Made by a program: the position numbers and the translations under genes. A DNA stretch of 64,000 nucleotides from sequence record PP993145.1; one strand, 5' to 3'. Numbering within the stretch: position 1 is the first letter of the stretch; every line of letters starts with the position of its first letter. This document shows, piece after piece, positions 12,875 through 39,012 of the stretch. Under the pieces are notes generated by a model, which worked only from the letters and a program-made list of their open reading frames with translations, was not told the origin of the DNA and searched no databases. Origin of the DNA: Escherichia phage phiP4.

Positions 12875-12887
12875 AAATTCTTTAGTT

Positions 12888-13072
12888 TACTAAGGCTATT
12901 AGCTCGGCGTAACTACAGCACCTTCGCTTCGAGCGGAAGGAACTGCGTCATCTCGCAAACCCAATACACTATTCAGTTGCCGCTGAATCTAGTGGACCAA
13001 TCTAGAACTTCTCCCGAATCAGGGGGATCGTGCTTTTTGGCAGCCAGTCCTAGGTCGAGCTAATACCTTAGT
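12888..13072 (-). ncRNA. structured ORF-free element closed by terminal inverted repeat (candidate small RNA)
   Basis: About 16-nt inverted repeat taaggctattagctcg (12890-12906) / cgagctaatacctta (13055-13070) enclosing a GC-rich stretch with internal hairpins; strand not determined. Confidence 0.3.
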
Positions 13073-13159
13073 GAACTATGATGAGGATTTCTCCTCATCA
13101 ATTTATATAAATATTATAACAAGAAATTAAGCATCAAGCAACTGCGTTTTTTCTTGAAA

Positions 13160-13239
13160 TTGGTAGATCGCCTGGGACTCGAACCCAGAACCTTCCGATT
13201 AAAAGTCGGATGCTACTAAACCTATTGAGCTAGCGATCT
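13160..13239 (-). tRNA. tRNA-Lys (UUU)
   Basis: Acceptor AGATCGC/GCGATCT, anticodon arm TCCGA-CTTTTAA-TCGGA, T-arm CTGGG-TTCGAGT-CCCAG. Confidence 0.7.
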
Positions 13240-13428: not shown

Positions 13429-13506
13429 TGGAAGCGGGTGCAGGAATCGAACCTACCTCTTTCTAGCTTATGAGACTAGCGATCTCTACCAGAGATCTAA
13501 CCCGCG
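13429..13506 (-). tRNA. tRNA-fMet-like (CAU), initiator-type
   Basis: Anticodon loop CTCATAA; 5' end CGCGGGT with unpaired position 1-72 (C1/U72), the hallmark of bacterial initiator tRNA. Confidence 0.55.
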
Positions 13507-13512
13507 ATTATT

Positions 13513-13588
13513 TGGTCAGTGCGGCAGGACTCGAACCTGCGACCCGAAGCATCCAAGGCTCCCACGCTACCAACTGCGCTACGCACTG
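13513..13588 (-). tRNA. tRNA-Pro (UGG)
   Basis: Acceptor CAGTGCG/CGCACTG, D-arm GCGC-AGTTGGTA-GCGT, anticodon loop CTTGGAT. Confidence 0.65.
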
Positions 13589-13797
13589 TTAATTTTTGTT
13601 AACTCACTTTATAAGATATATTATACAGAGAATTAAGCAGAATAGCAAATGAATTTTTAATAAATTTACTTATTGTGTAGGCCACCTAGAGGCTATGAAC
13701 CCCACGGCTGACAAAGAAGTTTGCGAGACTTCTCTTAAATGCCAGAATAGACCCGCCGATCTATCGGAACCTACATAATAAGTAAACTTTATAGTGT

Positions 13798-13918
13798 CAT
13801 TCTAGACAGGACTCGAACCTGTTATCACTTGTGCGGACTTACGAGAACCATTCTTTCACTCGAATCGAACGAGCTTCTGCCCTCGCCAAGCTGGTTTCCC
13901 CATCAACCACGCTAGAAT
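13798..13918 (-). ncRNA. unusual tRNA-like RNA of about 120 nt (tRNA with large insertion or novel tRNA-like ncRNA)
   Basis: Perfect 7-bp acceptor pairing between 13799-13805 and 13912-13918, perfect T-arm ACAGG-TTCGAGT-CCTGT, D-arm-like TGGT-loop-ACCA, but about 45 extra nt between D-arm and T-arm including a second T-arm-like hairpin. Confidence 0.4.
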
Positions 13919-14040
13919 GTTTGATTGTTTTCAGTGCAAGAGTCCGAGTCTTGGACACGACCGCTTCGCAAGTACATAGGCAGCTTATCATGAGTCAGCA
14001 CTTCCGAATTGCTAGCTCCGTGTTCTGCACTGAAATTTTA

Positions 14041-14388
14041 TTAGTTTAACCGTAAAGTATTATCTACTTCACCATTAATTGTTCGGCATTCTTCTGGGAT
14101 TGCCGGGGTAGCCTTATATTCCCACCACTCAGCACCATCATATTCCCCACGTTCTAACCAAGTTCCATCGGCAAACCATACATTACCATAAAGTAATTGT
14201 CCACCGTATCCAGAATCATATTCAAAGTCTAGGTTATTAAGAAAATCCTCAATATCTTCTTCTGTATAACCTAAAGGTAATACCCAAACTTTTTTATCCC
14301 CATAATACCCGAATTCTATTTTAATACACTTAACTTCAGAATTAGTATTTTTTAAGGCAAGTAACAACTCTTCTTTAGCATTACGCAT
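14041..14388 (-). CDS. hypothetical protein
   Basis: 115-aa ORF. Confidence 0.4.
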   Translation of the reverse strand: MRNAKEELLLALKNTNSEVKCIKIEFGYYGDKKVWVLPLGYTEEDIEDFLNNLDFEYDSGYGGQLLYGNVWFADGTWLERGEYDGAEWWEYKATPAIPEECRTINGEVDNTLRLN

Positions 14389-14413
14389 AATATATTCTCA
14401 TACTGAATTAATT

Positions 14414-14490
14414 TGGCGCGACCGATGGGATTCGAACCCACATTCTCTCCCGTGACAGGGGAGTACCATTACCAAGCCAGCCCCGGTCGC
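14414..14490 (-). tRNA. tRNA-Asp (GUC)
   Basis: Acceptor GCGACCG/CGGTCGC, anticodon arm CTCCC-CTGTCAC-GGGAG. Confidence 0.7.
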
Positions 14491-14499
14491 ATGATCTGT

Positions 14500-14685
14500 T
14501 TATTCAGCTTTGAGTTTTTCAATAGCTGCATTAAGTTCTTTAAGAAACTCTTTTCGTACATTAAGACGATTGAGACTTACTAGTATATCATGTTTAAGTT
14601 CTTCGATGTATTTCTTCTCAACTTCAATATTGTTGATAGTGCTATCACGATGAACTTCTAACTGTGCAATTACATTCTTGGACAT
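14500..14685 (-). CDS. hypothetical coiled-coil protein
   Basis: 61-aa ORF. Confidence 0.35.
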   Translation of the reverse strand: MSKNVIAQLEVHRDSTINNIEVEKKYIEELKHDILVSLNRLNVRKEFLKELNAAIEKLKAE

Positions 14686-17527: not shown

Positions 17528-17605
17528 TGGTGGCTCCCCGAGGATTCGAACCTACGTACCTTCCGGTTATGAGCCGGGTGCTCATACCATATGAGCTTGA
17601 GAACC
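17528..17605 (-). tRNA. tRNA, anticodon CAU (Met-type)
   Basis: Acceptor GGTTCTC/GGGAGCC, D-arm GCTC-ATATGGTAT-GAGC, anticodon arm CCGG-CTCATAA-CCGG; T-stem weak. Confidence 0.5.
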
Positions 17606-21798: not shown

Positions 21799-21870
21799 TA
21801 CCGACCGTAGGATTCGAACCTACATCTTCCACCAGTTACGGCTTGATAATACCAATTATACTAGGACGGC
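21799..21870 (-). ncRNA. tRNA-like element (possible pseudo-tRNA)
   Basis: T-arm GTAGG-TTCGAAT-CCTAC and near-complementary acceptor strands, but the anticodon arm does not fold. Confidence 0.3.
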
Positions 21871-30085: not shown

Positions 30086-31227
30086 AAGAAATCTCCAAAT
30101 TCATTACCCAGATCTTTCAGAGTATCAGTAGAGGTCTCAGTTACCTGACCTACACGGTAAGCTGCACCAATCTGGATTTCTTGCGGAGCAGGCTGTAGAG
30201 AAGTAGTATCCAACCAGTTCATGATCCACGGAATAGGGTTTTTGGTGATTACTGGTAAGTGACTAGGCCATTCTACACCGATGTGCATAAATGCATTACG
30301 CCCCACAAAGTACAGATATTCTTCTAGAAGTTCTGCATTCAAGCCAATCAGACTACGACCTTTGAAAATGAAATGACCCCATTCAATTTCAGTTTTCAGA
30401 GTTTTCAGGAGCTGTGCTGGTGCTTTAGCCACTGCTTCATCTACCAGATCTTTGTCAAACTGCTGGAACATAATCTGGATGATTGCTTTAGACATCTGAG
30501 TGTGTAGAGCTTCATCTTTAGCAATTAATTGTAGGTTTTTAGCAATACCTTGCAGAATATCGTTCTCTGCTAATGCAAAGGTACATGCAAAGGATGCATA
30601 AAACTGCATTGCTTCCAGACCATAGATCGCAAAGTAAGCGTCTAATAGTTTAGCCTGAGTTTCACGTTTAACTTCAGGGAACTCAGTTTCTGGATATGTA
30701 TTGTCGCCACGATGATCGCGTACTGCGATGAAATACTGACCTAACTGGTACAGTTCATCGAATAGTTCAACAGAATCAGCGATGCGTGCGAATGCTTCTT
30801 GGTTTTTGGTTACAGAATCAATAAATTCTGCTGGATCAGTTAGCACATTACGAATAATATTGCTATAAGCACGACTATGCAGATCTTCGAAGTAGCTCCA
30901 CTGCTTGAGCATACCTTCCAATTCTGGACGACTTACAAGCGGCATAATAGCTGCTTCAGGAGCACGACTGATAAAGGAATCTGTTTGAGTTTGCCATGCT
31001 AAGTTCAGGAGTGTAATTTCCTGAATTTCCCGTGGGAGATTAGGCCATTGTTTCTTATCTGCTTCCAGACTGATTTCAGTTTCAGTCCAAAATTGAGAGC
31101 GTTGCAGAAGTGCCAGACGTTCTAGTTCTGGATGTGCTACACGTACATAATCTGCGATACCGAGAGAATCGCCCAGGAAAAGATCAGCGTTAGTATGGTC
31201 CCAATTCAGGTTTAGTAAAGTAGTCAT
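30082..31227 (-). CDS. nrdB: ribonucleotide reductase class I beta subunit
   Basis: 381 aa; diiron-site EALHT and conserved C-terminal region. Confidence 0.9.
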   Translation of the reverse strand: MTTLLNLNWDHTNADLFLGDSLGIADYVRVAHPELERLALLQRSQFWTETEISLEADKKQWPNLPREIQEITLLNLAWQTQTDSFISRAPEAAIMPLVSRPELEGMLKQWSYFEDLHSRAYSNIIRNVLTDPAEFIDSVTKNQEAFARIADSVELFDELYQLGQYFIAVRDHRGDNTYPETEFPEVKRETQAKLLDAYFAIYGLEAMQFYASFACTFALAENDILQGIAKNLQLIAKDEALHTQMSKAIIQIMFQQFDKDLVDEAVAKAPAQLLKTLKTEIEWGHFIFKGRSLIGLNAELLEEYLYFVGRNAFMHIGVEWPSHLPVITKNPIPWIMNWLDTTSLQPAPQEIQIGAAYRVGQVTETSTDTLKDLGNEFGDFL

Positions 31228-31333
31228 TGATTTTCCTCTTTCTCACTATTTCAGGAATATTATAGCAAATCTGGTAGCGATTAGCAAGTAAAATTTCAAA
31301 GAAAAAGGAGACCCGAAGATCTCCTTGTTTTTA

Positions 31334-33664
31334 TTAAATAGTACAACCACCGGATGCACAACCTGCTGCTTCTTCTCCAGCACCTCCACCATTTGCAGTA
31401 TTGAAGTTAGCATAGTAGAAAGTTTTCCACCCATACTTAACAGCAGTCATGAAATCACGAACTACTACTGGGCCAGGAATGATTTCATTCTCAAACTTGG
31501 TGTAGTCATAGTACATATTCGTACTGATAGACTGGCTGAAGAATTTCTGCATAGTTGCTACCCACTTGATCCACTCGATACGATCTACATCATAAGCCAG
31601 TTTATAGCTCATTAACGTTTCCCAATCGGTTGCACCTGGAGCAATTGCAATTACTTTATTCACTGCACTACCCTTGATAGATACAATCTTACGAGGCGGT
31701 TCAATAGAGTTAGTAACACCTAACAGAACAGAAGAACTTTCTCCTGGCATCTGAGCAGTCAGAACAGAGTTACGCATACCATATTTCAGAATATCTGCAC
31801 GCAGAGACTCCCAATCCATTTCTAGACCTACGGATACCAGTTCATCAACAGTTTTCTTGTAAGTGTCGATTACCAGAATTCCTTTAGATGGTTTAGTACG
31901 ATCAAACCACTCACATGCACCCTGTTCTTTAGCTAGGCGTACAGAGGCTTTATGCAGAAAGTAAGACAGTTTTTCAGCCTCACGGTGAATCCAGTTACGG
32001 GCTTCAATACCTTCATAAGCCAGACCTTCTGCTGCCATTGCACCTGCTGCGTTCATCAGGCCAATACCAACATTACGACGTTTCTTAGCCGTATATTCCA
32101 TAGTTGGGAACGGATAATCCTGAATTTCAATAATTGTATCAACGAATTTCAGGAGGATGTAGCAAGTTTTTTCCCACTCAGCCAGAGATTCCATGCGTCC
32201 AAGTACAACACCACCTAAGTTACACAGAGATACTTCACCAATATCCTCCGGCTTCATTTGATCAAGCTGCTCTTTTGTCTTATACAGCTCTGTGATATGA
32301 TGGAACGGGCGTGTAGGCTGAGTAATTTCAACACAAAGGTTTGTCATACGGATCGGATCAAGGAAGTTACCGTGACGGTTAGATTCCCCGATGTGATGAG
32401 CGTACATACGTCCTGTTTCCATTCGGATACGTAGCCAAGTATCTAGGATTTCTTTTGCAGAGACTTTAGGAGCTGCAGGAACTGTTTTTCCTTCGTGGTC
32501 GATCTTTGTAAGAGATGCCACACGTTTCTCCGCTGCCACGTAGATTTCTTCAAATTTAGCCTCGTCATCACTATAAAACGCTTCATGAACTTCTGGAGCA
32601 TAGAAGTATGACATTAGCGTAATATCTTCGTTTTTAAGATAACGTTTTAACAAAAGATTGTTAAAGCTCAGAGAATAATCCATCTTATCGATTTTATTCT
32701 CATCTGTAGCACGTTGTTGCTTAACCTGCATCAATTGAATGATTTCAGGGTCGAAGTACGGATAAGACACTGTGGCAGAACCACCACGAGTTTGCTGAGT
32801 ATTGGCCTTTACTGAGCGGTCAATGTGTCGATAATATGGCAGTTTTCCGGAATGCGGGAATGCCCCATTTCGCACCGGATCAGCAATTGATCGGCTTTCA
32901 AGATGATACCCGATTCCCGCTCTGGCTGCGACCATTTTGAAGACGATGTGCTCGGCGGTGTCGATTGAATCCAACGTGTCAGTGGAATCCACGAGGCAGC
33001 AACTAGCAAATCCACGGTCACTAGAGCGCAGACCAACCAGTGGCGGCGTAGGAACGTTGATTTTGTGGAGTGACATTGCATTGTAGAGGTCGATTGCATC
33101 TAGAATTGTCCAGTTAGGTTGAGATAACATCGCCATTGCCATACCCATGTAGGCAAACTGCGGGGTTTCATAAATTTCACCAGTGGCTATGTTACGACGG
33201 GAATACTTATCAAAGAACTGTTTCAGCCCACCACTAGTAAAAAGACGGTCACGATCGTGGTCTATAACCTGATTCAGAGCTTCAAATTGCTCATCGGTAA
33301 TCCATGCACTCATGTCTTCCCATGCACCTACGCTAACCATATGGTCATGGAAGAAGCGTAGAGAGGGTGGTTCGAAAGAATCATAAAGGCGTTTACGCAT
33401 TTGCGCAAGACGTAATTCCTTTGCTGGCACATCGTATGCTGGATTATCTTTGATAAGACTTTCAGCAGCTTTAATTAATGCATCCATCAGAGTGTCGGAA
33501 TCTACAACCCCTTTAGGCAGAGTTTTTTGAGCAGCCATAGTAATGGCTGACCAACTTACATCAACTGTTTTGCAACCATACTCTGCCCAACCATTGAGTT
33601 TTTCAGGAGCAAAGTCTTCTACAGTACCGTCACGTTTAATTACTTTTTCAATGCGATGGCTCAT
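31334..33664 (-). CDS. nrdA: ribonucleotide reductase class I alpha subunit
   Basis: ATP-cone start MSHRIEKVIKRDG with RBS AAGGAAA; catalytic core including NLCVEI; upstream in-frame Met codons of the 811-aa ORF probably not used. Confidence 0.9.
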   Translation of the reverse strand: MSHRIEKVIKRDGTVEDFAPEKLNGWAEYGCKTVDVSWSAITMAAQKTLPKGVVDSDTLMDALIKAAESLIKDNPAYDVPAKELRLAQMRKRLYDSFEPPSLRFFHDHMVSVGAWEDMSAWITDEQFEALNQVIDHDRDRLFTSGGLKQFFDKYSRRNIATGEIYETPQFAYMGMAMAMLSQPNWTILDAIDLYNAMSLHKINVPTPPLVGLRSSDRGFASCCLVDSTDTLDSIDTAEHIVFKMVAARAGIGYHLESRSIADPVRNGAFPHSGKLPYYRHIDRSVKANTQQTRGGSATVSYPYFDPEIIQLMQVKQQRATDENKIDKMDYSLSFNNLLLKRYLKNEDITLMSYFYAPEVHEAFYSDDEAKFEEIYVAAEKRVASLTKIDHEGKTVPAAPKVSAKEILDTWLRIRMETGRMYAHHIGESNRHGNFLDPIRMTNLCVEITQPTRPFHHITELYKTKEQLDQMKPEDIGEVSLCNLGGVVLGRMESLAEWEKTCYILLKFVDTIIEIQDYPFPTMEYTAKKRRNVGIGLMNAAGAMAAEGLAYEGIEARNWIHREAEKLSYFLHKASVRLAKEQGACEWFDRTKPSKGILVIDTYKKTVDELVSVGLEMDWESLRADILKYGMRNSVLTAQMPGESSSVLLGVTNSIEPPRKIVSIKGSAVNKVIAIAPGATDWETLMSYKLAYDVDRIEWIKWVATMQKFFSQSISTNMYYDYTKFENEIIPGPVVVRDFMTAVKYGWKTFYYANFNTANGGGAGEEAAGCASGGCTI

Positions 33665-33806
33665 TTGGCTTTCCTTTTTATAGTTATCAGGATTTAAGGA
33701 ATATTCTACTTTATTATCGGTCATTAGGCAAATAAAATTTTCTGATAGAAAAGGCCCGAGTATTTTCATACCCAGGCCCTGTATATTACCAGTCTAGCTT
33801 TTTAGC

Positions 33807-34028
33807 TTATTCAATTACTTTAGCTCTAGCTACTTCTTTTAATAGAATATCTATGGAGGTGCTCAGCTCGTTATAGTTGAATGGTTTATTTGGATTTGAG
33901 GTTACAATTTTCCACGCTAGGGTTGTCTTAGGACTTTCTTCCCCTTCCTTACGTGTAATCATATTAGCAGCACTCAGTGAAGTACGATGTATTTTAGTTT
34001 TACGGCTCAGATGAACGACGTTTCCCAT
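33807..34028 (-). CDS. hypothetical protein
   Basis: Trimmed to Met overlapping phoH stop (ATG/TAA overlap). Confidence 0.3.
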   Translation of the reverse strand: MGNVVHLSRKTKIHRTSLSAANMITRKEGEESPKTTLAWKIVTSNPNKPFNYNELSTSIDILLKEVARAKVIE

Positions 34029-34029
34029 A

Positions 34030-34791
34030 TTACACCTTCCCCATGTCTTTAAAAATATCATAGAATGCTTTAGACTCAACAGAACGAACGTTATCAATCA
34101 ATTCGATCATTGAGAATGGGGCATTTTCGTATTTTTCATAGACTTCCATAAGGAGTGCTAGACCTGAGTCACCTTTAATGTCTTTCTGAGCTATATCTCC
34201 GCAGATAATTAAACGGCAGTCTTGTCCTACACGAGTTAGGAGACAAATCATTGCCTCAACGGAAATATTCTGAGCTTCATCGACAATTACATAGGAGTTG
34301 TTGAAAGTTCTGCCACGAGCATGTTCGATAGCCAAAAATTTAATTTTCTGACGTTCGACATATCCTTTATATGCATGATCGCCGATGGCCCATTTCATAC
34401 CATCAGCTATTGGCTCCAACCAAGGCTCTAGCTTTTCCGCTAGATCACCAGGAAGCATACCAAGAGACTTACCTAGAGGTTCATTAGGACGTACGAGAAT
34501 CACTTGCTCAATATCTGAGTGAATGTCTACGAGTTCCTGAGCTGCAAGAACGGACGGAATAAAGGTTTTACCAGTACCTGGCTCGCCGATACCCACAGTC
34601 ACTGTGTTGTTCTTGATCATATTGATATATGATTTTTGCTCGCGGTTTTTACCTACTAGGGATTTAGCAACTGGGTTAGCGTAATCATTAGAAAAATCAG
34701 CCTGAATTACGTTGTTCTCATATTTGTTGCCACGCTTTCTTGAACCATTGCGGTTCTCTCTTTTTTGACGTGCTTTTCCCATAAATAACAC
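34030..34791 (-). CDS. phoH: PhoH-like ATPase
   Basis: 253 aa; Walker A GEPGTGKTF and DEAQN Walker B. Confidence 0.85.
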   Translation of the reverse strand: MLFMGKARQKRENRNGSRKRGNKYENNVIQADFSNDYANPVAKSLVGKNREQKSYINMIKNNTVTVGIGEPGTGKTFIPSVLAAQELVDIHSDIEQVILVRPNEPLGKSLGMLPGDLAEKLEPWLEPIADGMKWAIGDHAYKGYVERQKIKFLAIEHARGRTFNNSYVIVDEAQNISVEAMICLLTRVGQDCRLIICGDIAQKDIKGDSGLALLMEVYEKYENAPFSMIELIDNVRSVESKAFYDIFKDMGKV

Positions 34792-35069
34792 TCCTATAGT
34801 GTACTTCGCTAACAGAGGATCAACAAAAAGATCTTGTTTATCAACTTACAAATATATTATACCAATATATACAGTAAAAAGCAACTACAATTTTAAATAA
34901 GCCTATGATATTGCATTTAAATAAAAAATTTGCTTGCTTTTAACGTGAGATGTGTGATACTAGATAATCATTTTATATCGCGTGCACGAGTGCGTGATTA
35001 TACAATTTTTAATAGAGATTGGCAAATAAAATTTTTTGACTCAGATCATGTTACAGAACTTTATAGTAA

Positions 35070-35110
35070 AATATTGTTGACATCCGCCCTCGAATGAGTT
35101 ATAATAGTAG
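35070..35110 (+). promoter_or_regulatory. sigma70-type promoter for nrdD
   Basis: TTGACA (35077-35082), 17-bp spacer, TATAAT (35100-35105). Confidence 0.55.
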
Positions 35111-35134
35111 TCTTAGTTAGAGAAGGAGAGTATA

Positions 35135-37009
35135 ATGAATCGCAATGAAGAACTAAAGTATAAAGAAATGCAGGCGTTAATTAGAAACTGCAAAGAGATT
35201 ATCGAAGGGTCAGCAGATGAAGAGCTGCTGTTTAATAATGCTAATAAACCCTCAGAACGTTTCCCTACACAAAGGGATATGCTTGCAGGTGAGTTGAGTA
35301 AGTATCTGATTCTAGAAGAAATGCCAATTCAGATTCGAAATGCTCATATGATTGGGGATATTCATTTCCATGATGCTGATTATGCTGCATTAGGCATGAC
35401 TAACTGTTGCCTGGTAGCTCTGGAAGATATGTTAAAGAATGGTATGAAGGTTGGTAATGCTGAAATTAGCACTCCAAACTCTATCACTACTGCGGCGGCT
35501 ATCACTGCTCAGATTATCACTCAAGTTAGCTCCCATCAGTATGGTGGTACTTCTGTAGATCGCCTTGATGAAGTATTAGCCCCTTATGTTCGTAAATCCT
35601 ATGACAAAAATCATGCGTTTGCAAAACGTTGGACTAAGGATGAAGCCAAAGCATCTGTAATGGCTACGGAGATGACTGAAAAAGAAGTCTATGACGCTTG
35701 TCAGGGTTTAGAATATGAAATCAATACCATGTTTAACTCTAATGGTCAGAGTCCATTTATTACCTTTGGTTTTGGTCTAGGAACTTCCTGGGAAGCACGT
35801 CTAGTACAGAAAGCAATACTGAAAGTACGCATGGATGGTTTAGGTATCAATAAACGTACAGCTATCTTCCCAAAACTGGTATTTGTACTTCGTGATGGCG
35901 TAAATATGAAACCAGGAGATGTTAATTATGACATCAAGAAGTTAGCTATGAAATGTACTGCTGAACGTATGTATCCAGATTATATCAGCTATGACAAAGT
36001 TGTAGAAGTTACTGGAGACTACAAAGTTTCTATGGGCTGCCGTTCATTCCTAGCTGCTACAGAAGATGGTGAAACTGCCGGTCGTAATAACTTAGGTGTT
36101 GTTTCTGTAAACTTGCCTAGAATTGCTATCGAAGCTGAAGGAAATATTGACCTATTCTTTGATTTGCTTGAGCTACGTGTGGATACAGCATTAAAAGCGT
36201 TGGAGTGGAGAGTTGATCGCTTAAAATATATCCAAGCTAAAGCTGCACCCATCCTCTATATGTCAGGAGCTTTTGGGTTACGCTTGGAGCCTGATGAATA
36301 TGTATTCGATCATTTCTATAACCGTGCTTCTGTATCCCTAGGGTATATTGGTTGCCATGAAATGCTACAGTTCATGTTTGGCAAAGATGTAGACACAATG
36401 TCCGAGACCTGCATCAAGTTTGTTCAGCGTGTATTGCAGTACATGCGAGATAGGGTAGATCAGAAGAAGGAAGAAACTAAGTTAGGTTATAGCCTATATG
36501 CTACACCATCGGAATCCCTATGCGATCGTTTTTGTCGTCTAGACCGTGAGTATTTCCCGGAGCATGAAGATATTCTGTCCAAAGGATACTACACTAACTC
36601 GCACCACCTTGATGTAGAACGTAAAGTTGCTCCTAACGTCAAATTTGATTATGAATCTAACTTTACTCCGATTGCTTCTGGTGGGTGCATTTCCTATGTA
36701 GAACTACCAGATATGAAACGATTCCCAGATGCACTGGAATGGGTTATTAATTATGCCGCTAGTAAAGTTCATTACTTCGGTATCAATACTCCAGTGGATT
36801 CTTGTGGTAAATGTGGATTCTTAGGTGAAACAATAGCATCCGAGGATGGATTTAAGTGCCCTATCTGTGGTAATCATGACCCCGAAACTCTTGAAGTAAC
36901 TCGTCGAGTTTGTGGGTATCTTGGAAATCCGGGTGCTCGTCCCTTTAACCCCGGCAAACAGCACGAGGTGATGGGCAGAGTGAAACATCAGGATATTCGA
37001 GCTAAATAA
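35135..37009 (+). CDS. nrdD: anaerobic ribonucleotide reductase class III
   Basis: 624 aa; C-terminal glycyl radical motif RVCGYLG and Cys-rich Zn site. Confidence 0.9.
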   Translation: MNRNEELKYKEMQALIRNCKEIIEGSADEELLFNNANKPSERFPTQRDMLAGELSKYLILEEMPIQIRNAHMIGDIHFHDADYAALGMTNCCLVALEDMLKNGMKVGNAEISTPNSITTAAAITAQIITQVSSHQYGGTSVDRLDEVLAPYVRKSYDKNHAFAKRWTKDEAKASVMATEMTEKEVYDACQGLEYEINTMFNSNGQSPFITFGFGLGTSWEARLVQKAILKVRMDGLGINKRTAIFPKLVFVLRDGVNMKPGDVNYDIKKLAMKCTAERMYPDYISYDKVVEVTGDYKVSMGCRSFLAATEDGETAGRNNLGVVSVNLPRIAIEAEGNIDLFFDLLELRVDTALKALEWRVDRLKYIQAKAAPILYMSGAFGLRLEPDEYVFDHFYNRASVSLGYIGCHEMLQFMFGKDVDTMSETCIKFVQRVLQYMRDRVDQKKEETKLGYSLYATPSESLCDRFCRLDREYFPEHEDILSKGYYTNSHHLDVERKVAPNVKFDYESNFTPIASGGCISYVELPDMKRFPDALEWVINYAASKVHYFGINTPVDSCGKCGFLGETIASEDGFKCPICGNHDPETLEVTRRVCGYLGNPGARPFNPGKQHEVMGRVKHQDIRAK

Positions 37010-37016
37010 GCTAATC

Positions 37017-37050
37017 AGCCGGGTTGCTAGTCGACCTGGCTTTTATTTTA
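37017..37050 (+). terminator. rho-independent terminator
   Basis: Hairpin after nrdD stop followed by TTTTATTTTATTT. Confidence 0.5.
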
Positions 37051-37088
37051 TTTGCTTTCAGCCAAAAATTTATATATAATAGATTTAT
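37045..37088 (+). promoter_or_regulatory. T5-type early promoter
   Basis: TTGCTT (37052-37057), 17-bp spacer, TATAAT (37075-37080), A/T-rich upstream. Confidence 0.55.
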
Positions 37089-37108
37089 AAATTTGATGAG
37101 AGAAAGAT

Positions 37109-37321
37109 ATGAGAGTTCACAAGGTAGATAAAGAACGTATCTATTTTATTATGGATTCTGGGGCGTATGGTTCCATTCTCCGTGGGGATATAACTAAATT
37201 ATGTTTAGTAAATACTTGGATGAACGAAGGGAAGATTGATCCTAGGGTGGGATTGTGCTTATCCGAACCCGCCCTTTCTATTGCTAATGCAGAAATTGAA
37301 ATGTTTGAGGAACAAGAATGA
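37109..37321 (+). CDS. hypothetical protein
   Basis: 70-aa ORF with RBS. Confidence 0.4.
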   Translation: MRVHKVDKERIYFIMDSGAYGSILRGDITKLCLVNTWMNEGKIDPRVGLCLSEPALSIANAEIEMFEEQE

Positions 37322-37521
37322 AAAACGTAAAACATCTTAAATATCGCTTAATTTACAACGGACGTATGGAAACAGAAGATCTGGCCCAGTTAGCTATTAA
37401 TTCTAATGAGGTTACAGTGCGTGCGCTGGCAATTGAAAAGTTGCGTGCCTCTTATGAAAATCGTGTTATGGAACTAGAGGAGAAACTTTATGGCATTCTC
37501 GAAGCTGATGCTACCAGATAA
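37318..37521 (+). CDS. hypothetical protein
   Basis: 67-aa ORF, ATGA overlap. Confidence 0.4.
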   Translation: MKNVKHLKYRLIYNGRMETEDLAQLAINSNEVTVRALAIEKLRASYENRVMELEEKLYGILEADATR

Positions 37522-37711
37522 GGGTTTAAACGACGCTTTGGAAAACGCATTAATGCAGCAGTGGGAAACTGGCTATAAGGATGGTGTTGAATCCTGTGCT
37601 ACTATGCTAGAAGTTATTGCTAATACCTTAATGGAGAAAGGCAATAAAGAATTAGCTGAGCTATTAGACAGTATTGGGCAAAACTTCAGAGAACAGGTGA
37701 AAAATGCGTAG
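37490..37711 (+). CDS. hypothetical protein
   Basis: 73-aa ORF. Confidence 0.4.
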   Translation: MAFSKLMLPDKGLNDALENALMQQWETGYKDGVESCATMLEVIANTLMEKGNKELAELLDSIGQNFREQVKNA

Positions 37712-38519
37712 ATTAATTATTATTAGTGGTGCAGGTTTGAGTGTTGAAAGTGGTGTACGAGCTTTTCGTACTGATACTGCTAGTGGTAAAGCATTGTGGG
37801 ATGATTATGATCTAGAAGAGGTATGTAATATTCATGCCTTTCGTGGTAATTTTTATCATAAAACCCATATGTTTTACAACAAGCGTCGTGAAGAGCTAAA
37901 AACTGTTGAACCCAATCTTGCGCATTTGCGTATTGGTGAATGGTATAAACAATATCCAGGCCAAGTAGTAAACTTGACTACCAACGTTGATGACCTTATT
38001 GAGCGTGCTGGCGTTCCACATAGTGACATTCTGCACATTCACGGATATTTAAAAGAGGTTGTTGTAGCTGATAGCTACAATAGTAGCAATAAACGGATTA
38101 TTGATGTAGGGTACAATTCTATTGATCCAGACGATTATAAATGGGTTAAACCTAATGTAATCTTTTTTGGGGAGCATGCTCCAGCGTACGCAGAAATGTA
38201 CAATGTTTTTGATGGTATTACCAGTCAAGATATGATCGTTGTGGTTGGTTGCTCTAACCAAGTAATTAACTTCTACTGGGAATTATTTCCTGTTCTTAAT
38301 TTGACTGCTGCCAAGCTAATGGTTGTTAACTACTATGATAGTGCCCTAGCGGCGGAACCGAGCTATCAAGGTATGACTCGTAGTGAGATGTACCAGCTGG
38401 AAGAACGCGGTATCCCTTACTGGAGTAAAGGTGCGGTAGATGCTTTCAGTGATCCTGATTTTATTGCTCGTGTAGAAGCTCATTTAGAGGGTAGACCTTA
38501 TGTGTCAGGAAATAAGTAA
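37704..38519 (+). CDS. Sir2-family (sirtuin-like) NAD-dependent protein
   Basis: 271 aa; N-terminal GAGLSVESGVRAFR matches the sirtuin NAD-binding signature; HIHGYL catalytic-His context. Confidence 0.6.
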   Translation: MRRLIIISGAGLSVESGVRAFRTDTASGKALWDDYDLEEVCNIHAFRGNFYHKTHMFYNKRREELKTVEPNLAHLRIGEWYKQYPGQVVNLTTNVDDLIERAGVPHSDILHIHGYLKEVVVADSYNSSNKRIIDVGYNSIDPDDYKWVKPNVIFFGEHAPAYAEMYNVFDGITSQDMIVVVGCSNQVINFYWELFPVLNLTAAKLMVVNYYDSALAAEPSYQGMTRSEMYQLEERGIPYWSKGAVDAFSDPDFIARVEAHLEGRPYVSGNK

Positions 38520-39012
38520 TACTCCAATTATTTTTCTAGACATTGATGGGGTGCTCAATTCGAGCATCTCCCAATATCATGCGCCTGATGATGAAAAGAT
38601 TTTCTTTGGAAGTGATTGGGTTTTCAAACCGCTTCTCAAGGCTTTTCAGGACTTTATTCGTCCTTCTCCAATAATGATTGTTGGAGTATCATCTTGGTTC
38701 TCTGTCAGAAATGAGATGGAGAACGTTCAGATTATGACCGGATTAGGTCTTATCGATCGTTTTCTTGGTACAACGGATTTTACTGGGGGTGGATTATCTA
38801 GGGGTAATTCTGTTCTTCGCTTCGTTGAAAAGCATAAGCTCAAACATTGGTGTGTGCTTGATGATGCGGGTGCTATGATGTATCAGTATCCAACGGTTAT
38901 AGTCAACGGTAGGACTGGAATAAATCTTCAAGATTTAAGAGCTGTTAGCTATATGTTAGAATTTAGTCCGGATCTTGAAATGTGTAAATCCTTACAACAA
39001 TTTAAGGTGTAA
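38500..39012 (+). CDS. HAD-superfamily phosphatase-like protein
   Basis: 170 aa; N-terminal FLDIDGVLN resembles HAD motif I. Confidence 0.4.
   Translation: MCQEISNTPIIFLDIDGVLNSSISQYHAPDDEKIFFGSDWVFKPLLKAFQDFIRPSPIMIVGVSSWFSVRNEMENVQIMTGLGLIDRFLGTTDFTGGGLSRGNSVLRFVEKHKLKHWCVLDDAGAMMYQYPTVIVNGRTGINLQDLRAVSYMLEFSPDLEMCKSLQQFKV

What the first reader, a model, noticed from the sequence alone, without database searches (positions are those of the whole stretch)
13798..13918. About 120-nt tRNA-like RNA with perfect acceptor and T-arm but a large internal insertion
Sequence 13799-13805 is exactly complementary to 13912-13918 (7-bp acceptor). A perfect T-arm ACAGG-TTCGAGT-CCTGT lies next to the 3' acceptor strand and a D-arm-like hairpin next to the 5' strand. 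About 45 extra nucleotides, including a second T-arm-like hairpin CTCG-TTCGATT-CGAG, sit where the anticodon and variable arms should be. It could be a tRNA with an intron-like insertion, a tRNA with an extreme variable arm, or a tRNA-mimic ncRNA.
Basis: seen in the sequence. Interest (0 to 1): 0.65.

Follow-up and report, generated by a model that had tools for sequence, protein, structure and literature searches.

The report
Phage T5 RNA2: tRNA-shaped non-decoding RNA
This is the gene for phage T5's long-known but unexplained "RNA2", a tRNA-shaped RNA whose anticodon loop is replaced by a 55-nucleotide folded module that turns out to be conserved in many unrelated large phages, so it is a real functional RNA of unknown role rather than a working tRNA.

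Summary
On the minus strand, 13918→13798 folds into a tRNA cloverleaf (7-bp acceptor stem, D arm, 5-bp anticodon stem, 4-nt variable loop, T arm). A 55-nt insert replaces the anticodon loop. The window is a T5-like phage, and this locus is the ortholog (96.5% identical) of T5 rna2, annotated in GenBank AY543070 as a "tRNA-like stable RNA with unknown functions". The RNA is therefore already known. Neither ARAGORN, at default thresholds, nor any Rfam family at its gathering score calls it.

I found homologs in T5-like, T4-like and jumbo-sized phage contigs and in metagenomes. In 19 of the 20 loci scanned for tRNAs they lie in tRNA arrays on the tRNA strand. Covariation supports every helix (92–94% of cells paired, against 31–48% in controls). 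The insert is a three-way junction carrying a second T-arm-like hairpin (loop UUCGAUU) and a small hairpin with a UGG loop, joined by invariant linkers.

It has no usable anticodon loop. It lacks the encoded CCA that 21 of 22 neighbouring tRNAs have. A viable T5 deletion strain removes it. The best reading is a tRNA-derived, non-decoding RNA processed like a tRNA, whose conserved module binds an unknown partner, possibly as a decoy. Its function remains open.

The parts
13798..13918 (-). Whole RNA2 cloverleaf, 121 nt including the discriminator G at 13798. The T5 annotation maps to 13795-13919 (125 nt), adding a C at position -1 and a 3' ACA tail.
   Evidence: Covariance-model hit of 134.3 bits spanning exactly these coordinates. 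96.5% identical to T5 rna2.
13912..13918 (-). Acceptor stem, 5' strand (AUUCUAG, RNA nt 1-7)
   Evidence: Pairs with 13799-13805. All 7 pairs change on both sides across the family.
13892..13909 (-). D arm (UGGUU-GAUGGGGA-AACCA, nt 10-27), with a GG-containing loop
   Evidence: All 5 pairs covary.
13887..13891 (-). Anticodon-type stem, 5' strand (GCUUG, nt 28-32). It pairs with nt 88-92 (13827-13831).
   Evidence: All 5 pairs covary, 92.7% of cells paired. This differs from the single-sequence minimum-free-energy pairing.
13832..13886 (-). Conserved 55-nt module replacing the anticodon loop (nt 33-87)
   Evidence: Insert length is 55 nt in 23 of 31 homologs. It contains long invariant stretches.
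13879..13882 (-). Module helix P2', 5' strand (G37 G38 G39 Y40). It pairs with nt 81-84 (13835-13838). C34-G85 lies below it.
   Evidence: G-C 34/36, G-C 36/36, G.U 33/36. Pair 40-81 is U-A in 21 and C-G in 8 sequences. Mostly invariant, so the helix is inferred.
13876..13877 (-). Module helix P3', 5' strand (G42 N43). It pairs with N75 C76 (13843-13844) and stacks under the mini-hairpin.
   Evidence: Pair 43-75 was found de novo by the mutual-information scan at rank 17: A-U 16, U-A 10, G-C 5, C-G 1. G42-C76 is 36/36.
13859..13873 (-). Inner T-arm-like hairpin P4' (CUCG-UUCGAUU-CGAG, nt 46-60)
   Evidence: Three of 4 stem pairs covary. The closing pair G49-C57 and the loop UUCGAUU are essentially invariant.
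13854..13858 (-). Junction strand U61-G62-A63-A64-A65 (UGAAA), which matches a T-loop-type pentamer
   Evidence: Conserved in about 27 of 31 sequences, but replaced by other sequence or by a ~50-nt hairpin in some lineages.
13845..13853 (-). Mini-hairpin P5' (GAA-UGG-UUC, nt 66-74) with an invariant UGG loop
   Evidence: Pair 67-73 is A-U 18, U-A 11, G-C 2, C-G 1. The loop U69 G70 G71 is invariant wherever it is present.
13832..13842 (-). Invariant 3' strand of the module, G77-U78-A79-A80-N-U82-C83-C84-G85-C86-A87
   Evidence: Within the CGUAA block (nt 76-80), CGUAA is 31/31. CC and A87 are 31/31.
13823..13826 (-). Variable loop (GAUA, nt 93-96)
   Evidence: Alignments A2 and A3.
13806..13822 (-). 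T arm (ACAGG-UUCGAGU-CCUGU, nt 97-113)
   Evidence: Four of 5 pairs covary, 96.6% of cells paired.
13799..13805 (-). Acceptor stem, 3' strand (CUAGAAU, nt 114-120). It is followed by the discriminator G (13798) and ACA (13797-13795), not CCA.
   Evidence: 21 of 22 tRNAs in the window encode CCA; RNA2 does not.

Best explanation
This is the gene for phage T5 RNA2, a tRNA-derived RNA that does not decode.

Shown: it lies on the same strand as the phage's tRNA genes, inside the tRNA array. It folds into a tRNA cloverleaf. Its anticodon loop is replaced by a conserved 55-nt three-way-junction module.

Inferred: it is transcribed as part of a longer tRNA-array transcript. It is cut out by the tRNA maturation machinery (RNase P at the 5' end, nucleases at the 3' end), and the tRNA scaffold makes it a stable RNA of about 121-125 nt. 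It cannot read a codon and is probably not charged with an amino acid.

The working part is the module at the tip of the extended anticodon arm. It carries a second T-arm-like hairpin (loop UUCGAUU) next to a small hairpin with an invariant UGG loop. These two loops probably dock on each other the way the T loop and the D-loop GG do in a tRNA elbow, held in place by invariant linker nucleotides.

I infer that this module is a binding surface for a conserved partner that normally handles tRNA, and that the RNA acts in trans as a decoy, sponge or adaptor. It lies in the dispensable tRNA-rich region of T5, which is known to counter host defences, so an anti-defence role is the most likely biological setting. 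The partner is unknown.
For: Identity:
- The window is 96-97% identical to T5-like phages.
- The 141-nt stretch matches 478 phage records, and the T5 record annotates it as rna2, "tRNA-like stable RNA with unknown functions".

Structure:
- Every helix covaries.
- The 43-75 pair was found independently by the mutual-information scan.

The scaffold derives from a tRNA:
- With the insert swapped for a 7-nt loop, ARAGORN of 31 scaffolds as tRNAs, against 0 of 31 unspliced.
- Rfam's tRNA model scores one relative at 44.8 bits, above its threshold of 29.

It is not a working tRNA:
- No ARAGORN call at default thresholds and no Rfam call above gathering score.
- No canonical anticodon loop.
- 21 of 22 real tRNAs in the window encode CCA, while RNA2 has G-ACA.
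- The discriminator base and the acceptor sequence vary freely among lineages, so no conserved charging identity is visible.

The insert is the selected part:
- Its length is 55 nt in 23 of 31 sequences.
- It has long invariant stretches, while the scaffold stems vary.
- It is conserved across T5-like, T4-like Acinetobacter, jumbo-sized and metagenomic phage contigs.
- It was found only in phage-like DNA. A scan of 185,579 bacterial and archaeal species genomes gave one true hit, on a 167-kb contig (L037) that closely resembles the T4-like members.

Context:
- In 19 of the 20 loci scanned, members sit within tRNA arrays on the tRNA strand.
- There is no terminator-like site anywhere in 13500-14500, and a promoter-like site lies downstream of RNAIV.
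- No protein-coding neighbour is conserved across the family.

Dispensability and setting:
- The viable strain T5Mos carries deletion 30661-38625, which removes rna2 at 32959-33083.
- That region supplies anti-defence tRNAs (PMC11464382; PMC11555353).
Against: - Nothing here shows a binding partner or a phenotype.
- Stable accumulation rests on the GenBank annotation alone, because the original RNA work is not in the searchable library.
- The proposed docking of the UGG loop onto the inner T-loop involves invariant nucleotides, so covariation cannot test it.
- The T4-like members lack a convincing acceptor stem, so processing by RNase P may not apply to the whole family.
- The T5-type scaffold is degenerate, with C at position 8 and a 5-bp D stem. 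Even with the insert removed, ARAGORN does not call the window's scaffold or most other T5-type ones as a tRNA.
- Loss of RNA2 in T5Mos has no reported phenotype of its own.
Confidence: 0.6

Rival explanations
1. [quoted passage not shown] RNA2 would then stack onto the elbow of other tRNAs, or mimic the L1 stalk.
For: - The defining core signature is AGNNA...UGNNA. In the L1 stalk an extra U sits between residues 4 and 5 of T-loop 1 (PMC3664808).
- E. coli 23S rRNA has AGGAUA at 2114-2119 and UGAAA at 2167-2171. RNase P RNA has AGAGA at 132 and UGAAA at 178; from memory, these flank helix P12.
- RNA2 has A36-G-G-G-Y-A41 and U61-G-A-A-A65 on either side of a hairpin, in the same order.
- Position 40, the "extra" residue, covaries with position 81.
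- The elbow review expects more such modules to be found (PMC4810234).
Against: - UGNNA is the least conserved block of the module. It is replaced in L004/L039, L092, L112/L159 and L170, and by a ~50-nt hairpin in L288.
- The AGGGYA strand is also predicted to form a regular helix with U82-C83-C84 (91.6% paired), which competes with a T-loop fold.
- I noticed the motif match after the fact.
Confidence: 0.15
2. RNA2 acts only in cis. It would be a tRNA-shaped processing or punctuation signal, or a stabiliser, for the polycistronic tRNA-array transcript, and the released RNA would be a by-product.
For: - Members are embedded in tRNA arrays and often abut neighbouring tRNAs.
- No own promoter or terminator is evident.
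- T5 carries several other structured stable RNAs in the same array: RNAIV and RNA2H.
Against: A processing signal needs only the acceptor and T-arm shape. Here the acceptor sequence drifts freely, while the 55-nt module, which is irrelevant to RNase P, is invariant in sequence and length across distant phages.
Confidence: 0.12
3. It is an intron-containing tRNA gene, for example tRNA-Arg(CCG), and the insert is removed to give a working tRNA. This would resemble the "enigmatic introns" reported in megaphage tRNAs.
For: - With lowered thresholds ARAGORN calls tRNA-Arg(ccg) with a 48-nt intron spanning exactly 13918-13798.
- Other tRNAs in related arrays carry 60-73-nt inserts in the anticodon loop.
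- Conserved introns in Lak phage tRNAs have been reported (bioRxiv 10.1101/356790).
Against: - Default intron mode finds nothing.
- The residual loop would have G32 and C37, or U37 in the T4-like members. A pyrimidine at position 37 is not seen in working tRNAs (established knowledge).
- There is no group I core or other Rfam intron family, and 55 nt is far too short for a group I intron.
- No encoded CCA, unlike its neighbours.
- T5 annotates the stable RNA at the unspliced length.
Confidence: 0.05
4. It is a decaying tRNA pseudogene carrying a chance insertion and has no function.
For: The T5-type scaffold is degenerate and fails tRNA detectors even when the insert is removed.
Against: - Compensatory changes occur in every helix.
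- The insert length is constant.
- Sequence blocks are invariant across T5-like, T4-like and environmental phages.
Confidence: 0.02
5. The conservation reflects a small protein-coding gene overlapping the locus. Several GenBank records annotate a hypothetical protein here.
For: - Overlapping ORFs exist, for example + strand 13831-14049 (72 aa).
- They cluster across phages.
- Several records annotate hypothetical proteins over the match.
Against: - The substitutions are compensatory for RNA helices.
- Total lengths vary by 1-2 nt and are spread over all three residues mod 3.
- The ORFs differ in strand, frame and extent among phages.
Confidence: 0.01

Closest known systems
Phage T5 rna2 (RNA2), GenBank AY543070 / NC_005859, misc_RNA 32959..33083
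   Same: It is the ortholog: 96.5% identical over 141 nt, on the same strand, in the same position between the T5.067 homolog and RNAIV/promoter P13a. The annotation describes it as a tRNA-like stable RNA of unknown function.
   Different: Only point substitutions, for example A70 here against G70 in T5, which gives U3.G70 in T5. The annotation gives no structure, no family and no function.
Phage T4 species 1 and species 2 RNAs (rnaC, rnaD)
   Same: They are small stable RNAs of unknown function, encoded at the end of a phage tRNA cluster. rnaC ends in a T-arm-like hairpin.
   Different: They are not homologous. The RNA2 model scores them at or below 16.7 bits, no better than background. T4-like Acinetobacter phages do carry a true RNA2-family member.
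Engineered "tRNA scaffold" for expressing recombinant RNA in E. coli
   Same: The design is the same: a structured RNA is grafted in place of the anticodon loop, so that tRNA processing and folding make it stable. This comparison rests on my own knowledge; PMC3753655, listed, concerns the method.
   Different: RNA2 is natural, is conserved in phages, and has a payload of unknown function.
tmRNA tRNA-like domain
   Same: It has an acceptor stem and a T arm, with the anticodon arm replaced by another domain.
   Different: RNA2 has a D stem and an anticodon-type stem, and no tag reading frame or pseudoknots. ARAGORN's tmRNA mode and Rfam find nothing.
Double T-loop elbow-docking modules (L1 stalk, RNase P J11/12-J12/13, T-box Stem I)
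   Same: T-loop-type pentamers AGNN(U)A and UGNNA lie on either side of a hairpin.
   Different: The UGNNA block is not conserved throughout the family, and the first block may be helical. Neither the 3D fold nor tRNA binding has been tested.
"Enigmatic introns" in Lak megaphage tRNAs (Devoto et al., bioRxiv 10.1101/356790)
   Same: These are conserved inserts of tens of nucleotides within phage tRNA genes. One is itself predicted to look like a tRNA. I found similar insert-bearing tRNAs in related arrays.
   Different: Those hosts keep a recognisable anticodon, whereas RNA2 does not. Sequence relatedness to RNA2's module was not tested.
Bacterial Y-RNA-like YrlA tRNA-like module
   Same: It is a non-coding RNA that mimics the tRNA D and T arms (my own knowledge).
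   Different: The topology is opposite: in YrlA the RNA ends form the Ro-binding stem, not the acceptor stem. No Rfam hit was found here.

Membership tests
Phage T5 RNA2 (rna2) | Sequence orthology to the annotated T5 rna2 | tested here: met
   96.5% identity over 141 nt to AY543070 32954-33094, which overlaps misc_RNA rna2.
Phage T5 RNA2 (rna2) | Same genomic position and strand within the tRNA region | tested here: met
   It lies between the T5.067 homolog and RNAIV/P13a on the tRNA strand.
Phage T5 RNA2 (rna2) | Accumulates as a stable RNA of about 125 nt in infected cells | not testable with these tools
   This rests only on the GenBank annotation.
Canonical tRNA (Rfam RF00005) | Cloverleaf with acceptor, D, anticodon and T helices | tested here: met
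   All four helices covary.
Canonical tRNA (Rfam RF00005) | 7-nt anticodon loop with U33, an anticodon and a purine at position 37 | tested here: not met
   A 55-nt module replaces the loop. The best forced loop is G-U-CCG-C-A.
Canonical tRNA (Rfam RF00005) | Passes tRNA detectors at their curated thresholds | tested here: not met
   No ARAGORN or Rfam call in the window, even at E<=10. One distant relative, L103, does pass Rfam at 44.8 bits.
Canonical tRNA (Rfam RF00005) | 3' CCA end, encoded as in the other tRNAs of this phage | tested here: not met
   21 of 22 tRNAs in the window encode CCA. RNA2 has G-ACA. Only one lineage in the family encodes CCA.
Canonical tRNA (Rfam RF00005) | Is aminoacylated and used in translation | not testable with these tools
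   This needs acid-gel or periodate assays.
Intron-containing tRNA | Removing the insert leaves a canonical anticodon loop | tested here: not met
   The residual loop has G32 and C37. In T4-like members the equivalent sequence is UCCAUA.
Intron-containing tRNA | Recognisable intron class (group I core or similar) | tested here: not met
   No Rfam intron family matches. The insert is 55 nt.
Intron-containing tRNA | A spliced product exists | not testable with these tools
   This needs RNA-seq or Northern blots.
tmRNA | tRNA-like domain together with a tag reading frame, detectable by tmRNA models | tested here: not met
   ARAGORN tmRNA search and Rfam find nothing.
Double T-loop elbow-docking module | Six-residue core AGNNA...UGNNA, conserved | tested here: inconclusive
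   The window has AGGGCA (with the extra residue) and UGAAA. The UGNNA block is lost in several lineages, and the first block may be helical.
Double T-loop elbow-docking module | Interdigitated 3D fold that stacks on the tRNA G19:C56 platform | not testable with these tools
   This needs structure determination and binding assays.
T4 rnaC / rnaD stable RNAs | Homologous sequence and structure | tested here: not met
   The RNA2 model scores at most 16.7 bits on the T4 rnaC/rnaD region with filters off.

The most novel reading that the evidence does not exclude
The 55-nt module is a self-contained second "elbow" or T-loop platform mounted on a tRNA scaffold. That would make RNA2 a natural tRNA-scaffolded aptamer. 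Phages would use it to bind or impersonate tRNA for a conserved tRNA-handling factor, such as a tRNA-targeting immune nuclease or a T-arm-recognising enzyme. RNA2 would then be an RNA anti-defence decoy, spread among T5-like, T4-like and jumbo phages, and possibly a fourth natural class of T-loop-based tRNA recognition.
Probability: 0.2. Interest if true: 0.8.

Novelty: already known. Interest (0 to 1): 0.5.

Why it matters
T5 is a model phage, and its tRNA-rich region has recently been shown to neutralise host defences that attack tRNAs (PARIS and retron Eco7). RNA2 lies in that region and is annotated in GenBank as a stable RNA of unknown function. It has no Rfam family and no published structure that I could find.

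This analysis gives it a covariation-supported structure. It shows that the conserved part is the insert, not the tRNA scaffold. It also shows that the same module occurs in very different large phages. Together these turn an unexplained annotation into a set of direct experiments: precise deletion, module swaps and pull-downs.

It also shows that the hypothetical-protein calls over this locus in several GenBank phage records are probably spurious. More broadly, insert-bearing tRNA-shaped genes recur in phage tRNA arrays.

Tried and rejected
- **Single-sequence folding** gave z = -1.0 and paired nt 28-32 with 78-82. Comparative data showed the true partner is 88-92.
- **Rfam** found no family for the insert, at gathering and at E<=10 on the window, and at E<=1 on five divergent loci.
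- **ARAGORN** in default, intron and tmRNA modes found nothing. Lowered thresholds force an implausible tRNA-Arg with an intron.
- **T4 rnaC/rnaD** as homologs: rejected.
- **"tRNA-Lys" annotated under the match** in smaug and vB_EcoS-26175I: in smaug it is an adjacent gene that barely overlaps the match. The other record was not inspected.
- **Pair 43-73** as an alternative helix: rejected. The partner of 43 is 75.
- **Pairs 33-86, 35-85/86 and 36-85** as helix extensions: no support.
- **Conserved protein neighbour:** none. Only spurious ORFs overlapping the RNA cluster together.
- **Loose half-motif scans** returned mostly ordinary tRNAs or coding false positives, which the covariance model filtered out.
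- **Literature searches** for T5 RNA2 and for tRNA-scaffold RNAs in phages found no description of this RNA. The original T5 RNA papers are not in the library.
- **Resemblances I noticed by eye** to 5S rRNA, the L11-binding region of 23S rRNA and RNase P conserved region III were not pursued. The matching words are specific to T5 or are too short.

Full report
**What is at the coordinates.** The window carries 22 ARAGORN tRNA genes, all on the minus strand. The finding lies between tRNA-Pro (13513-13588) and tRNA-Asp (14414-14490). ARAGORN, Rfam at gathering thresholds and Rfam at E<=10 over 13589-14413 call nothing here. The single-sequence fold is not better than shuffles (z = -1.0).

**Identity.** The window is a T5-like phage (Demerecviridae), 96-97% identical to T5_ev212, EC148, SP15 and others. 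The 141-nt stretch around the finding matches 478 phage records. In the T5 reference AY543070 it is annotated as misc_RNA rna2, "RNA2, tRNA-like stable RNA with unknown functions", at 32959..33083. That corresponds to window 13795-13919: the cloverleaf plus one 5' C and a 3' ACA. Next to it T5 annotates RNAIV, another stable RNA, and promoter P13a. The object is therefore already known as an RNA gene, but its function is not. Most other phage records leave the spot unannotated or place a hypothetical protein on it.

**A family far wider than T5.** BLAST and pattern scans of viral contigs, metagenomes and bacterial genomes recovered homologs from several sources:
- Tequintavirus and Epseptimavirus.
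- Klebsiella Sugarlandvirus and Serratia phage Slocum.
- T4-like Acinetobacter phage Acj9, and related 160-167-kb contigs.
- A 311-kb contig, and contigs of 164 and 204 kb.
- Many environmental contigs.

A covariance model built from 18 sequences separates the family cleanly. Members score 50-136 bits. They are about 112-124 nt long, apart from one 167-nt variant (L288). Ordinary tRNAs score <=37 bits by skipping the insert. The window has exactly one member, at 13798-13918 (134.3 bits). Among 185,579 bacterial and archaeal species genomes, the strict core pattern gave one true hit, on a 167-kb contig (L037) that closely resembles the T4-like members. In 19 of the 20 loci scanned for tRNAs, members lie within tRNA arrays on the tRNA strand, often a few nucleotides from a neighbouring tRNA. 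T4's own cluster-encoded stable RNAs, rnaC and rnaD, are not members.

**Structure.** On 31 and then 36 aligned homologs, the proposed structure pairs 93.7% and 92.4% of cells, against 31-48% when partners are slid. 26 of 29 and 28 of 36 pairs change on both sides. Covariation scores are 0.81 and 0.71, against <=0.15 in the slid controls, and were reached by 0 of 500 shuffles. An unbiased mutual-information scan of all column pairs put the model's pairs at the top. It also revealed one pair I had not modelled, 43-75 (A-U 16, U-A 10, G-C 5, C-G 1), which sits next to the invariant G42-C76.

The resulting picture is a complete cloverleaf:
- Acceptor stem, 1-7 with 114-120.
- D arm, 10-14 with 23-27.
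- Anticodon-type stem, 28-32 with 88-92.
- 4-nt variable loop.
- T arm, 97-101 with 109-113.

The anticodon arm then continues through these elements:
- C34-G85.
- A largely invariant helix, 37-40 with 81-84, in which 40-81 covaries (U-A 21, C-G 8).
- An asymmetric loop, with A41 opposite G77-U78-A79-A80.
- The 2-bp helix 42-43 with 75-76.
- A three-way junction.

The junction bears a T-arm-like hairpin, with a 4-bp covarying stem, an invariant G-C closing pair and loop UUCGAUU. It also bears a 3-bp hairpin with an invariant UGG loop, joined to the first by UGAAA. Insert length is 55 nt in 23 of 31 sequences.

**Why it is tRNA-derived but not a tRNA.** When the insert is replaced by a 7-nt loop, ARAGORN of 31 scaffolds as tRNAs, against 0 of 31 unspliced. 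Rfam's tRNA model scores one distant member at 44.8 bits. There is no anticodon loop, however. Only with lowered thresholds does ARAGORN force a tRNA-Arg(CCG) with a 48-nt intron, and the residual loop G-U-CCG-C-A has a pyrimidine at position 37. 21 of 22 genuine tRNAs in this window encode CCA, whereas RNA2 has G-ACA. Across the family the tail is rarely CCA, and the discriminator is G, A, U or C. The acceptor stem sequence is entirely different from lineage to lineage. No conserved identity for a charging enzyme is visible. The constraint falls on the insert.

**What the module might be.** Two tertiary readings are possible.

(a) A second mini-elbow. The invariant G70-G71 in the small hairpin loop would dock on U51-C52 of the inner T-loop, as D-loop G18-G19 does on the T loop in tRNA. 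The GG-containing loop is kept even in lineages where that hairpin is rebuilt (L170) or where a ~50-nt hairpin is inserted beside it (L288). This is an inference, because invariant bases cannot covary.

[quoted passage not shown] The core of that module is AGNNA...UGNNA, with an extra U in the L1 version (PMC3664808). E. coli 23S rRNA has AGGAUA at 2114 and UGAAA at 2167, and RNase P RNA has AGAGA at 132 and UGAAA at 178. RNA2 has AGGG(U/C)A, then a hairpin, then UGAAA. Against this reading, UGAAA is the least conserved block, and the first block is equally well explained as a helix strand.

I rank (a) above (b). Neither is shown.

**Biological setting.** No protein neighbour is conserved. The only shared ORFs are artefacts lying over the RNA itself. 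The scan of 13500-14500 finds no terminator-like site, and a promoter-like site lies downstream of RNAIV, so RNA2 is probably excised from a longer transcript. The viable strain T5Mos lacks 30661-38625, which includes rna2. The coordinate system is the same as AY543070, because the paper's "Fragment 1, 31885-32870" contains exactly the annotated Val, Lys, fMet and Pro tRNAs (PMC11464382). This dispensable tRNA-rich region supplies tRNAs that defeat PARIS and retron Eco7. A trans-acting decoy or sponge role in host takeover or anti-defence is therefore the most economical hypothesis. It remains an inference.

**Rivals.** The following were considered and given lower weight, for the reasons listed under each rival:
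- A cis-only processing signal.
- An intron-containing tRNA, compare the "enigmatic introns" of Lak megaphage tRNAs.
- A pseudogene.
- An overlapping protein-coding gene.

**Verdict.** The "tRNA-mimic ncRNA" reading is right, and the variable-arm and intron readings are not. The feature is the already-annotated T5 RNA2, so its novelty as an object is low. What is new here is a covariation-supported structure, the recognition that a 55-nt T-loop-rich module is the conserved element, and its wide distribution among large phages. That makes a long-unexplained RNA experimentally tractable.

Noticed in passing
window 13674-13776 (-): This is the ortholog of T5 RNAIV, annotated as a stable RNA of unknown function. 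It folds into a four-way junction that resembles a cloverleaf, with an 8-bp closing stem (z = -3.6; 0 of 200 shuffles fold as well). It has no T-loop and is not in Rfam.
   Followed up: partly
window ~13931-14035 (-): A structured element with a ~10-bp closing stem (UUCAGUGCA.../...UGCACUGAA) lies between the T5.067 homolog and RNA2. T5 does not annotate it. The folding signal is weak (z = -1.96). It could be a processing site or another small RNA.
   Followed up: partly
window ~12889-13072 (-): This region corresponds to T5 rna2H, annotated as a stable RNA of unknown function. It folds with a ~17-bp closing stem (z = -3.4). It is not a member of the RNA2 family according to the covariance model.
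   Followed up: partly
window 17531-17605 (-) and 21799-21870 (-): Rfam calls two tRNAs (40.3 and 35.5 bits) that ARAGORN does not call. The second is the only tRNA-like gene in the window, apart from RNA2, that lacks an encoded CCA.
   Followed up: no
window 12875-13160 (-): Neither ARAGORN nor Rfam calls the tRNA-Val that T5 has between promoter P13b and tRNA-Lys, and the Ala-Lys gap is about 87 nt shorter than in T5.
   Followed up: no
window 13831-14049 (+): A 72-aa ORF lies antisense over RNA2. Comparable ORFs are annotated as hypothetical proteins in several GenBank records (for example Slocum_106 and Acj9p148) and are probably artefacts of the conserved RNA gene.
   Followed up: partly
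L315 1455-1599; L049 1967-2098; L135 6158-6275; L076 9321-9457; L181 8968-9094: Other tRNA-shaped genes in phage arrays carry unrelated structured inserts of 45-73 nt. ARAGORN's intron mode calls two of them Thr-UGU with a 73-nt insert and Gly-CCC with a 60-nt insert. One has a huge variable region. Insert-bearing tRNA genes seem to recur in large phages, as reported for Lak phages.
   Followed up: partly
L009 5451-5523; L023 6751-6823; L037 7053-7127; L049 1300-1373 and 2473-2546: Suppressor-type tRNAs, with anticodons CUA and UUA, are present in the tRNA arrays of several phages that carry an RNA2-family member.
   Followed up: no
window 13919 and 13798 (-): The nucleotide before the acceptor stem (C at position -1) is complementary to the discriminator (G). 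The same holds, as U:A, in about nine other lineages. This suggests an 8-bp acceptor stem and matches the 5' end given in the T5 annotation.
   Followed up: partly
L006, L008, L023, L037 (T4-like members): These members start right after the CCA of an upstream tRNA and lack a convincing acceptor stem or D stem. They keep the anticodon-type stem, the module and the T arm, so their maturation may differ.
   Followed up: partly
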